Below, in pieces: positions 10,534 to 10,847 of a stretch of 11,307 nt of DNA. The translations under genes were made by a program, and so were the position numbers. The stretch is taken from the UHGV virus genome UHGV-0356378; one strand, 5' to 3'. Below the pieces are notes generated by a model, which ran no database searches, was not told the origin of the DNA, and saw only the letters and a program-made list of their open reading frames with translations. The DNA comes from a virus. Every line of letters starts with the position of its first letter. Positions within the stretch are counted from its first letter, which is position 1.

Positions 10534-10749
10534 ATGGCTGCAATTCACATTGTCTCAATAATATGCAATGCAATTCAGATAGTTGCTTGCATTATCTTTG
10601 TTTTCTCAATCCTTCGCTCCCGACGATATTCTCCAGCAATTAACCGACATCCTGCACAGGTTGAAGCCGTCAGGATGGCTATAGAGTTACGAAATGAGAT
10701 GAATAAGGCATTAATGGAGATGGAGAAACCATTCACTGACAAACATTAA
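10534..10749 (+). CDS. Small single-pass membrane protein, 71 aa: N-terminal transmembrane helix (about residues 3-26), RSRRY anchor, charged helical C-terminal tail; function unknown
   Basis: ATG at 10534 preceded by GGGGG with 6-nt spacing. A strongly hydrophobic N-terminal stretch is followed by basic residues (positive-inside topology). A terminator follows downstream. Confidence 0.55.
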   Translation: MAAIHIVSIICNAIQIVACIIFVFSILRSRRYSPAINRHPAQVEAVRMAIELRNEMNKALMEMEKPFTDKH

Positions 10750-10827
10750 GAGTGGAAATAAAGAAATCACCCCGCCTCACACTCGATGAGGCATTTTCAT
10801 TTATCAAGATATACAGACCTACCATCG

Positions 10828-10847
10828 CCGCATCAATGCGGTTTTTT
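10828..10847 (+). terminator. Intrinsic terminator: CCGCAT-ca-ATGCGG hairpin followed by TTTTTTATT
   Basis: Perfect 6-bp inverted repeat (effective 5-bp stem with 4-nt loop) followed by a T6 run, about 80 bp downstream of the 71-aa ORF and 45 bp upstream of the excisionase gene. Confidence 0.5.

What the first reader, a model, noticed from the sequence alone, without database searches (positions are those of the whole stretch)
10534..10828. 71-aa single-pass membrane protein with its own terminator, upstream of the excisionase
The gene has a strong ribosome-binding site, an N-terminal transmembrane helix followed by RSRRY and a charged amphipathic tail, and a terminator downstream. Small membrane proteins in this prophage region often act as superinfection-exclusion factors or membrane-active toxins and regulators, but I cannot assign this one to any named family.
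Basis: inference. Interest (0 to 1): 0.5.

Follow-up and report, generated by a model that had tools for sequence, protein, structure and literature searches.

The report
Unannotated small phage membrane protein gene
The 71-codon reading frame is a real but tiny and uncharacterised phage gene for a single-pass membrane protein that genome annotation pipelines miss; it sits in a crippled prophage, and its supposed "own terminator" is a leftover piece of an old excisionase gene.

Summary
The ORF (10534-10749, +) exists as described: ATG start, a GGGGG Shine-Dalgarno-like run 6 nt upstream, one strongly hydrophobic helix (about residues 2-27), RSRRY, and a second helix (residues 40-68).

It is a real gene. 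A 46%-identical, 74-aa homologue sits at the same position in another E. coli lambdoid prophage. Codon-position identity is 58/70/37% and dN/dS is about 0.13. The protein matches PHROG 15342 (unknown function).

The family is very small: four clusters among 5.8 billion proteins, and 79 of 5,426 complete E. coli genomes. RefSeq annotates it in none of the rows listed.

The interpretation needs correcting on three points.
- The hairpin at 10774-10792 is the 5' coding relic of a P22-type xis gene. The second hairpin (10827-10842) is a hybrid terminator at a recombination joint.
- No promoter-like site precedes the gene. In the divergent homologue it sits 2 nt from both neighbouring genes. So it is the last gene of the early-left (pL) operon just before xis, not a self-contained unit expressed in the lysogen.
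- The window is a 10.8-kb deleted prophage remnant that lacks pL, so the gene is probably silent here.

Function is unknown. An invariant polar stripe (H5-S8-N12-Q15-C19) on the membrane helix suggests helix-helix association in the inner membrane. Interest is modest.

The parts
10462..10509 (+). 3' end of ORF55 (PHROG 676). This is the left edge of the conserved mosaic unit that always travels with the 71-aa gene.
   Evidence: In the alignment of 31 copies, variation is heavy to the left of about 10462 and sparse to the right of it. Sf101 matches from 10462 onward although its upstream gene is different.
10502..10522 (+). Terminator-like hairpin after ORF55 (GACGCC-TGAT-GGCGG plus T7). It holds the left copy of the 10-bp repeat GCGGTTTTTT (10512-10521).
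   Evidence: Fold energy -11.3 kcal/mol. The same place is annotated 'terminator' in the phage 434 record.
10523..10527 (+). Shine-Dalgarno-like GGGGG, 6 nt upstream of the ATG.
   Evidence: Read directly from the sequence. Position 10523 is G or T among relatives.
10534..10749 (+). 71-aa gene (PHROG 15342). Predicted inner-membrane protein with its N-terminus outside and C-terminus in the cytoplasm. Membrane helix about residues 2-27 with the invariant polar stripe H5-S8-N12-Q15-C19, basic RSRRY flank, linker 32-39, HPAQ-capped cytoplasmic helix 40-68.
10752..10830 (+). Relic of the 5' end of a P22-type (HTH_17) xis gene. It has a GTG start 2 nt after the stop of the 71-aa gene, reads MEIKKSPRLTLDEAFSFIKIYRPT..., and is truncated by recombination.
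   Evidence: 88% DNA identity over 59 nt to the intact xis in L044. 54% identity over 26 aa, E = 8e-08. The intact xis has an HTH_17 domain. The same relic is present upstream of four different functional xis genes.
10774..10792 (+). It lies inside the xis relic.
   Evidence: In most relatives the tail is CTGTTCATT, which is poorer in T.
10827..10848 (+). Hybrid terminator at the recombination joint (GCCGCATCAATGCGGT plus T6). It holds the right copy of GCGGTTTTTT (10838-10847).
   Evidence: From 10827 onward the sequence is collinear with phiv205-1, Sf6 and HK620, which lack the insert.
10893..11093 (+). torI, the HK620/KplE1-type excisionase and the functional xis of this prophage.
   Evidence: RefSeq annotation of the source genome.
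11162..11182 (.). attR core. Its partner lies at 368-388, at the 3' end of the argW tRNA-Arg gene.

Best explanation
The ORF is a genuine accessory gene of the delayed-early leftward (pL) operon of P22-like and lambdoid phages. It is the last gene before xis.

It encodes a 71-aa protein that crosses the inner membrane once, with its N-terminus outside and its C-terminus in the cytoplasm. The membrane helix carries an invariant polar face (H5, S8, N12, Q15, C19). The cytoplasmic tail forms one amphipathic helix.

Inferred mechanism. After induction or infection the gene is transcribed by antiterminated read-through from pL and translated from its own Shine-Dalgarno sequence. The protein inserts into the inner membrane. 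The polar face then drives association of the membrane helix, either with itself (an oligomer or pore) or with a host membrane protein. The tethered cytoplasmic helix would be the effector or regulatory part.

The gene travels as a roughly 340-360-bp mosaic unit made of the ORF55 3' end, a terminator, the gene itself and a 5' xis relic. Recombination has placed this unit in front of at least four other xis/int modules.

In this window it sits in a 10.8-kb deleted prophage remnant that has lost pL, so here it is most probably silent cargo.

Shown: it is a gene, its architecture, its synteny, its mosaic context and the absence of a promoter-like site. Inferred: topology, timing of expression and mode of action.
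For: Gene reality.
- P0004 (74 aa, 46% identity, E = 1.3e-11) was the only divergent relative among 1.84 billion representative proteins.
- Identity by codon position is 58/70/37%. dN is 0.45-0.52, dS is saturated at 3.9, so dN/dS is about 0.13.
- P0004 lies at the same position: 2 nt after the preceding early-left gene and 2 nt before an intact P22-type xis followed by int.
- Among the 35 full-length copies fetched, none has a frameshift or premature stop, and the only indel is an in-frame 6-bp duplication. Two copies have lost the stop codon and run a few codons longer.
- Nonsynonymous changes are more conservative than random (mean BLOSUM62 0.43 versus -0.15, P = 0.03).
- PHROG 15342 matches full length at E = 6.7e-52, and P0004 matches it at 2.5e-18.

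Architecture. Hydropathy, the +4/+5 flank on the C-terminal side, and all conserved polar residues falling within an 80-degree arc of the helical wheel. The AlphaFold2 model has two helices, mean pLDDT 79.

Operon membership. No promoter-like site in 9800-11307 on either strand, where 3.3 would be expected by chance, and none on the + strand at a relaxed 8-of-12 threshold. In Sf101 the preceding genes are on the same strand.

Mosaic unit. The unit has at least four kinds of upstream neighbour. Downstream are four kinds of functional xis: TorI-type, AlpA-like, a 115-aa P22-like type and a lambda-like type. All are reached through the same xis relic.

Remnant. The source genome annotation shows intS, wzy, tailspike, gp16, gp20, gp7, a gp14 fragment, then ASCH, ORF55, torI and dsdC.
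Against: Within the closely related copies (93-100% identical, 21 haplotypes) substitutions are close to neutral. There are 12 synonymous against 25 nonsynonymous changes, codon positions 11:10:16, and P = 0.13 against neutrality. torI in the same loci shows 16:1. Present-day constraint is therefore weak or undetectable.

PGAP shows no feature over it in any of the rows listed, out of 70 genomes that hold it full length.

There is no expression data. The promoter scan is only a consensus search and cannot exclude unusual promoters.

No homology or structural match supports any particular mechanism. The polar-stripe argument rests on only two divergent lineages.
Confidence: 0.6

Rival explanations
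1. One reading: a self-contained unit expressed in the lysogen, acting as a superinfection-exclusion factor that blocks DNA entry of incoming phages at the inner membrane.
For: It is a small membrane protein in a prophage. It is absent from close relatives (phiv205-1, Sf6, HK620), so it looks like an insertion. Its GC content is 39.8%, against 45-48% for its neighbours. It is flanked by terminator-like hairpins. Exclusion proteins made early in infection are known (T4 Imm; from established knowledge), so expression from pL would not by itself exclude this role.
Against: No promoter-like site on either strand. The homologue is embedded in an operon with 2-nt gaps on both sides. The downstream hairpin is a xis relic, not a dedicated terminator. 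No hit in PADLOC, and no significant match to a named family in Pfam, PHROGs or NCBIfam.
Confidence: 0.12
2. A membrane-depolarising toxin of a type I toxin-antitoxin pair, or a Kil- or holin-like lethal peptide.
For: The layout of an N-terminal membrane helix and a charged tail resembles Hok-like toxins and holins. The polar stripe could line a pore.
Against: No significant Rfam antitoxin RNA: the only such entry, istR, scores 14.9 bits at E = 5 and lies outside the ORF. Only one poor antisense promoter candidate, 8 of 12 matches with a 19-nt spacer. No Hok/Gef or holin Pfam match. At 71 aa it is longer than typical type I toxins. It is not in a lysis cassette. The ORF stays intact in prophage remnants that lack immunity genes, where a constitutively toxic gene would be counter-selected, although it may simply be silent there.
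Confidence: 0.1
3. In the close family the ORF is now a functionless hitch-hiker. It would be preserved only because the unit is young and lies between two recombination hot spots, the ORF55 terminator and the xis 5' end.
For: The substitution pattern among 21 haplotypes is close to neutral (12 synonymous to 25 nonsynonymous, no three-base periodicity). The adjacent xis is already a relic. Nine of 79 E. coli genomes keep only the 3' half of the ORF. It is never annotated in RefSeq.
Against: Long-term purifying selection against the 46% homologue. No premature stop or frameshift in 35 full-length copies. The indel found is in frame. Amino-acid changes are conservative (P = 0.03). Mosaic junctions always fall outside the ORF in intact prophages.
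Confidence: 0.15

Closest known systems
PHROG 15342 (phage protein family of unknown function)
   Same: Full-length profile match, 1-71 of 71, E = 6.7e-52. The 46% homologue also matches, at 2.5e-18. This is the family the protein belongs to.
   Different: The family carries no function, structure or literature. Nothing beyond membership can be taken from it.
Lambda-type morons (Juhala et al. 2000 concept; from established knowledge)
   Same: It is an extra segment of about 320 bp relative to close relatives. It has lower GC content than its neighbours and terminator-like hairpins on both sides.
   Different: It has no promoter of its own. The terminators are by-products of recombination. In the divergent homologue it is an ordinary operon gene.
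Small exclusion proteins that act at the membrane (T4 Imm, P22 SieA/SieB, HK97 gp15, phi80 Cor)
   Same: It is small, phage-encoded and predicted to sit in the inner membrane.
   Different: No detectable sequence relationship to a named family or to any PADLOC model. It has a single membrane helix, whereas T4 Imm has two (from memory). It has no lipoprotein signal motif, unlike Cor (the residue before C11 is Ile).
Type I toxins (Hok/Gef, TisB, Ldr) and single-helix holins such as T7 gp17.5
   Same: An N-terminal hydrophobic helix followed by a charged hydrophilic tail.
   Different: No family match. No significant antisense RNA or antisense promoter evidence. Not located in a lysis cassette. 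Longer than most type I toxins.
Lambda CIII and B. subtilis SpoVM (amphipathic-helix inhibitors of the membrane protease FtsH; from established knowledge)
   Same: It is an early-left-operon product with an amphipathic helix held at the cytoplasmic face of the membrane, where FtsH acts. It is encoded next to xis, and in lambda the Xis protein is a Lon/FtsH substrate.
   Different: This is purely an analogy. There is no sequence similarity and it was not tested here.

Membership tests
PHROG 15342 | Full-length match to the family profile | tested here: met
   E = 6.7e-52, residues 1-71 against profile 1-71 of 71. Homologue P0004 matches at E = 2.5e-18.
Moron (autonomous transcription unit inserted in a phage genome) | Present or absent between otherwise collinear relatives, with atypical base composition | tested here: met
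   About 320 bp is absent from phiv205-1, Sf6 and HK620. GC is 39.8% against 45-48% in the neighbours.
Moron (autonomous transcription unit inserted in a phage genome) | Own promoter | tested here: not met
   No sigma-70-like site in 9800-11307. None on the + strand in 10200-10560 at 8 or more of 12 matches. This is a consensus scan only.
Moron (autonomous transcription unit inserted in a phage genome) | Own factor-independent terminator | tested here: inconclusive
   Hairpins with T-rich tails exist. One is a xis coding relic and the other is a hybrid of the ORF55 terminator. Whether they terminate transcription was not tested.
Type I toxin-antitoxin | Match to a known toxin family (Hok/Gef, Ldr, TisB, Ibs, Sho, Zor and others) | tested here: not met
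   Pfam and NCBIfam gave only sub-threshold compositional hits: Reticulon, DUF4668, MscL, BC85_0335.
Type I toxin-antitoxin | Antisense or overlapping small-RNA antitoxin with its own promoter | tested here: not met
   No significant Rfam match: istR at 14.9 bits, E = 5, lies outside the ORF. The only antisense promoter candidate is poor: TTGATG, 19-nt spacer, TATCTT.
Superinfection-exclusion or defence proteins | Sequence relationship to a catalogued defence or exclusion protein | tested here: not met
   PADLOC gave 0 families for both members. The only PHROG match is of unknown function.
Superinfection-exclusion or defence proteins | Reduces plating of superinfecting phage | not testable with these tools
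   Requires efficiency-of-plating assays.
Holin | Small protein with at least one membrane helix and a charged C-terminal tail | tested here: met
Holin | Encoded in the lysis cassette beside an endolysin, or matching a holin family | tested here: not met
   It is the last early-left gene before xis in every context examined. No holin Pfam or PHROG match.

The most novel reading that the evidence does not exclude
A systematically unannotated family of small phage membrane proteins uses its invariant H-S-N-Q-C polar face to assemble a channel, or to dock onto a host inner-membrane protein such as FtsH. By doing so it would tune excision, the lysis-lysogeny decision or host membrane physiology during prophage induction. 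That would explain why the gene always sits directly upstream of xis, whichever type of xis follows.
Probability: 0.12. Interest if true: 0.55.

Novelty: new member of a known kind. Interest (0 to 1): 0.3.

Why it matters
Small membrane proteins are the class of gene most often missed by annotation. This one has no annotated feature in any listed RefSeq row, out of 70 complete E. coli genomes that carry it full length, and none in the GenBank records of phages Sf101 and IME10. Comparative evidence nevertheless shows it is a real, selected gene.

It is a cheap experimental target: 71 aa, two natural alleles at 46% identity, and a clear set of invariant residues to mutate. It could reveal a new early-phage function that acts at the membrane.

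The locus is also a clean example of lambdoid mosaicism. A 5' xis relic and a duplicated terminator half mark the exact recombination joints. It shows how a coding relic can be mistaken for a gene's own terminator.

The practical importance is limited. The family is rare (about 1.5% of E. coli genomes), confined to E. coli and Shigella phages, and probably silent in this particular remnant.

Tried and rejected
- Rfam scan at permissive E-values over 9800-11307: only sub-threshold hits, all outside the ORF.
- Pfam, NCBIfam and PADLOC for both family members: nothing above threshold. Reticulon, MscL and similar hits are compositional.
- PDB sequence-profile search: best E = 0.11, unrelated.
- Foldseek of the AlphaFold2 model against BFVD: 0 matches. 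Further fold searches were not run, because a two-helix model with pTM 0.34 would give meaningless matches.
- GTDB species-representative genomes: no copy.
- Profile search of the 5.8-billion-protein set with the family alignment: no members beyond the four clusters.
- Full-text literature search for peptide strings of both alleles: no papers. Keyword searches found only general phage-genome papers.
- I first read the truncated copies (L033, FORC_031) as a sign that the C-terminal half derives from a DNA-ejection protein. I rejected this: the ejection gene is on the opposite strand, and the junction is simply a deletion endpoint inside the ORF.
- The antisense 55-aa ORF (10575-10742, - strand) was rejected as the real gene, because the codon-position pattern supports the sense frame.
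- The 'DUF4222' label under partial hits turned out to belong to a separate gene that overlaps the start of the P22-type xis in other phages.

Full report
**What the window is.** The window is 100% identical to E. coli FDAARGOS_1248. The RefSeq annotation of that stretch, the tRNA scan and the repeat scan together show a 10.8-kb prophage remnant.
- It is integrated at argW (tRNA-Arg CCT, 313-387) and bounded by att core copies at 368-388 and 11162-11182.
- It contains intS (513-1706), an O-antigen polymerase-like gene (1988-3331), and on the minus strand a tailspike (3369-5582) and the three P22-type ejection proteins (5747-9873).
- A C-terminal fragment of gene 14 (about 9876-9983) abuts an ASCH-domain gene (9985-10269).
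- ORF55 (10342-10509), torI (10893-11093) and the host gene dsdC follow.
- Everything from the head genes through lysis, replication, immunity and most of the early-left operon has been deleted, so the pL promoter is gone.

**Checking the observation.** The 71-codon ORF is at 10534-10749 on the + strand, starting at the first possible start codon.
- A run of five G lies 6 nt upstream of the ATG.
- Residues 6-24 have a mean Kyte-Doolittle hydropathy of 2.66.
- The N-terminal flank is uncharged. Residues 27-40 carry net +4, which by the positive-inside rule puts the C-terminus in the cytoplasm.
- AlphaFold2 (5-sequence alignment, mean pLDDT 79) gives helix 2-31, a low-confidence linker 32-39 and helix 40-68.

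The descriptive part of the finding is therefore correct.

**Is it a gene?** RefSeq's pipeline does not think so. Nothing is annotated over it in the source genome, in any of the rows listed for the E. coli genomes that hold it, or in the Sf101 and IME10 records.

Evidence from the close relatives alone is weak. Among 36 copies (21 haplotypes, 93-100% identical) fetched from IMG/VR and metagenomes:
- Variable sites fall 11:10:16 over the three codon positions, with 12 synonymous against 25 nonsynonymous changes.
- This is not distinguishable from neutrality (P = 0.13). torI in the same loci shows 16:1.
- Weak positive signs are that the amino-acid changes are more conservative than random (P = 0.03) and there are no premature stops or frameshifts. 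The only indel inside the ORF is an in-frame 6-bp duplication.

The decisive evidence came from an exhaustive HMMER search of 1.84 billion representative proteins.
- Besides the near-identical cluster it found one significant divergent relative, P0004 (74 aa, 46% identity, E = 1.3e-11).
- The two genes are 58%, 70% and 37% identical at codon positions 1, 2 and 3. dN is 0.45-0.52, dS is saturated, and dN/dS is about 0.13. This is the classic signature of a protein under purifying selection.
- P0004 lies in an E. coli lambdoid prophage at the equivalent position. It is the last gene of the leftward early operon, 2 nt after the preceding gene's stop and preceded by GGAG. Two nt after its own stop comes an intact P22-type xis (HTH_17) and then int.
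- The window protein matches PHROG 15342 (unknown function) over its full length at E = 6.7e-52, and P0004 matches it at 2.5e-18.

I conclude with about 85% confidence that this is a real protein-coding gene.

**How rare is it?**
- There are four clusters in 5.8 billion proteins, three of them near-identical and known only from Logan assemblies. Neither a search with P0004 nor a profile search with the family alignment added members.
- None of 185,579 species-representative genomes holds a copy.
- 79 of 5,426 complete E. coli genomes hold it, 70 of them full length, at several chromosomal sites.
- Among phage records it occurs only in Sf101 and IME10.

**The 'own terminator' and the true structure of the locus.** Relative to phiv205-1, Sf6 and HK620, the window carries about 320 extra bases between ORF55 and torI.
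- Those phages have a single terminator, GCCGCC-TGAT-GGCGG-TTTTTT-ATTGCC. In the window its two halves are separated.
- The insert is bracketed by the 10-bp repeat GCGGTTTTTT (10512-10521 and 10838-10847).
- The sequence immediately after the ORF's stop (TAA-GA-GTG...) reads MEIKKSPRLTLDEAFSFIKIYRPT. This is the N-terminus of a P22-type Xis.
- It is 88% identical at DNA level over 59 nt, and 54% identical over 26 aa (E = 8e-08), to the intact xis next to P0004.
- The hairpin that looks like a terminator (10774-10792, -9.1 kcal/mol) lies inside that relic, in the stretch corresponding to the homologue's SLTLDEA. In most relatives its tail is CTGTTCATT rather than the T-richer ATTTTCATTT seen here.
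- The second hairpin (10827-10842, -8.3 kcal/mol) is a hybrid at the recombination joint.

The terminators are therefore historical by-products. Whether they terminate transcription is untested.

**A mosaic unit.** Across the fetched loci the block from about 10462 to about 10800-10823 is conserved while both flanks change.
- The block comprises the last 48 nt of ORF55, the terminator, the Shine-Dalgarno run, the gene and the xis relic.
- Upstream there are at least four kinds of neighbouring gene.
- Downstream there are four kinds of functional xis: TorI-type, AlpA-like as in Sf101, a 115-aa P22-like type and a lambda-like type. All are reached through the same relic, truncated at different points.
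- Mosaic junctions never fall inside the ORF in intact prophages.
- In a set of deleted remnants (FORC_031, L033, L043; 9 of 79 genomes keep only part of the ORF) a deletion endpoint lies in mid-ORF, fused to a truncated ejection-protein gene on the other strand.

**Expression.**
- No sigma-70-like promoter was found in 9800-11307 on either strand, where 3.3 would be expected by chance.
- A relaxed scan found nothing on the + strand upstream and only one poor antisense candidate.
- Together with the 2-nt gene spacing in the homologue, this makes the gene an ordinary member of the antitermination-dependent early-left operon, like xis itself.
- It is not a unit with its own promoter expressed in lysogens. 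In this window, which lacks pL, it is probably not expressed at all. This is an inference.

**What it might do.** No library gives a functional lead. What the sequence does show is the following.
- The residues invariant between the two lineages include H5, S8, C11, N12, Q15 and C19.
- H5, S8, N12, Q15 and C19 lie within an 80-degree arc on one face of the membrane helix.
- Other invariant features are an HPAQ motif capping the second helix and a KP motif ending it.
- From established knowledge of membrane-helix biophysics, Asn, Gln and His inside a single membrane helix are strong drivers of helix-helix association.

My best mechanistic guess is that the protein either self-assembles (an oligomer or pore) or docks onto a host membrane protein, presenting a tethered amphipathic cytoplasmic helix. 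The analogy to FtsH inhibitors such as lambda CIII, prompted by the position next to xis, is speculation only.

The exclusion, toxin and functionless-ORF readings remain possible at roughly 0.10-0.15 each.

**Verdict.**
- The 'self-contained unit with its own terminator, likely an exclusion factor or toxin' interpretation is only partly supported.
- The feature is a genuine, systematically unannotated member of a tiny orphan phage family (PHROG 15342). It is a new member of the known kind 'small phage-encoded membrane proteins of unknown function'.
- Interest is modest (0.3).

Noticed in passing
window 368-11182 (joint at about 9876-9985): The prophage is a 10.8-kb remnant. A C-terminal fragment of gene 14 (DUF2824) abuts an ASCH-domain early gene, which implies one large internal deletion. 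It removed head, lysis, replication, immunity and most early-left genes, and kept int, wzy, tailspike, ejection proteins and xis.
   Followed up: partly
L035 (FORC_031) 2952-4160; L033 2848-3225; L043: Independent remnants at another att site (near sbcB, with IS100 or IS3 elements) show a similar deletion. Its endpoint joins a truncated gp20 ejection gene to the middle of the 71-aa ORF. Nine of 79 E. coli genomes keep only part of the ORF. Deletions of this kind seem to recur.
   Followed up: partly
window 10858-10873 and 358-373: A perfect 16-nt copy of the argW T-arm sequence (TTGCAGGTTCGATTCC) lies just upstream of torI, about 290 nt before the true attR core. It may be the trace of an older attachment-site duplication. 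It falls in the stretch that the Sf6 record labels boundary sequence bsq2 and promoter pI.
   Followed up: no
window 10512-10521 and 10838-10847: The 10-bp direct repeat GCGGTTTTTT brackets the roughly 320-bp insert. Each copy completes a terminator-like hairpin. This suggests recombination within a terminator.
   Followed up: yes
window 10271-10322: Two tandem terminator-like hairpins (10271-10292 and 10303-10322) lie between the ASCH gene and ORF55. Weak sub-threshold Rfam hits (rsmX, rimP leader, Leu leader, istR) pile up on them.
   Followed up: no
window 1988-3331: The O-antigen polymerase-like (wzy) gene next to intS has 35% GC and 31.5% GC3, far below the rest of the element. It is probably serotype-converting cargo retained by the remnant.
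   Followed up: no
window 10534-10749 in RefSeq E. coli genomes: PGAP shows no feature over the ORF in any listed row, out of 70 complete genomes that hold it full length. The only NCBI protein record for the family is a TPA 'hypothetical protein' for the divergent allele P0004.
   Followed up: yes
L046 (phage ev243) 1251-1854: In many lambdoid phages the P22-type xis is itself unannotated in RefSeq. The gene labelled 'DUF4222 domain-containing protein' overlaps its start. This explains the DUF4222 labels under partial hits to window 10765-10850.
   Followed up: partly
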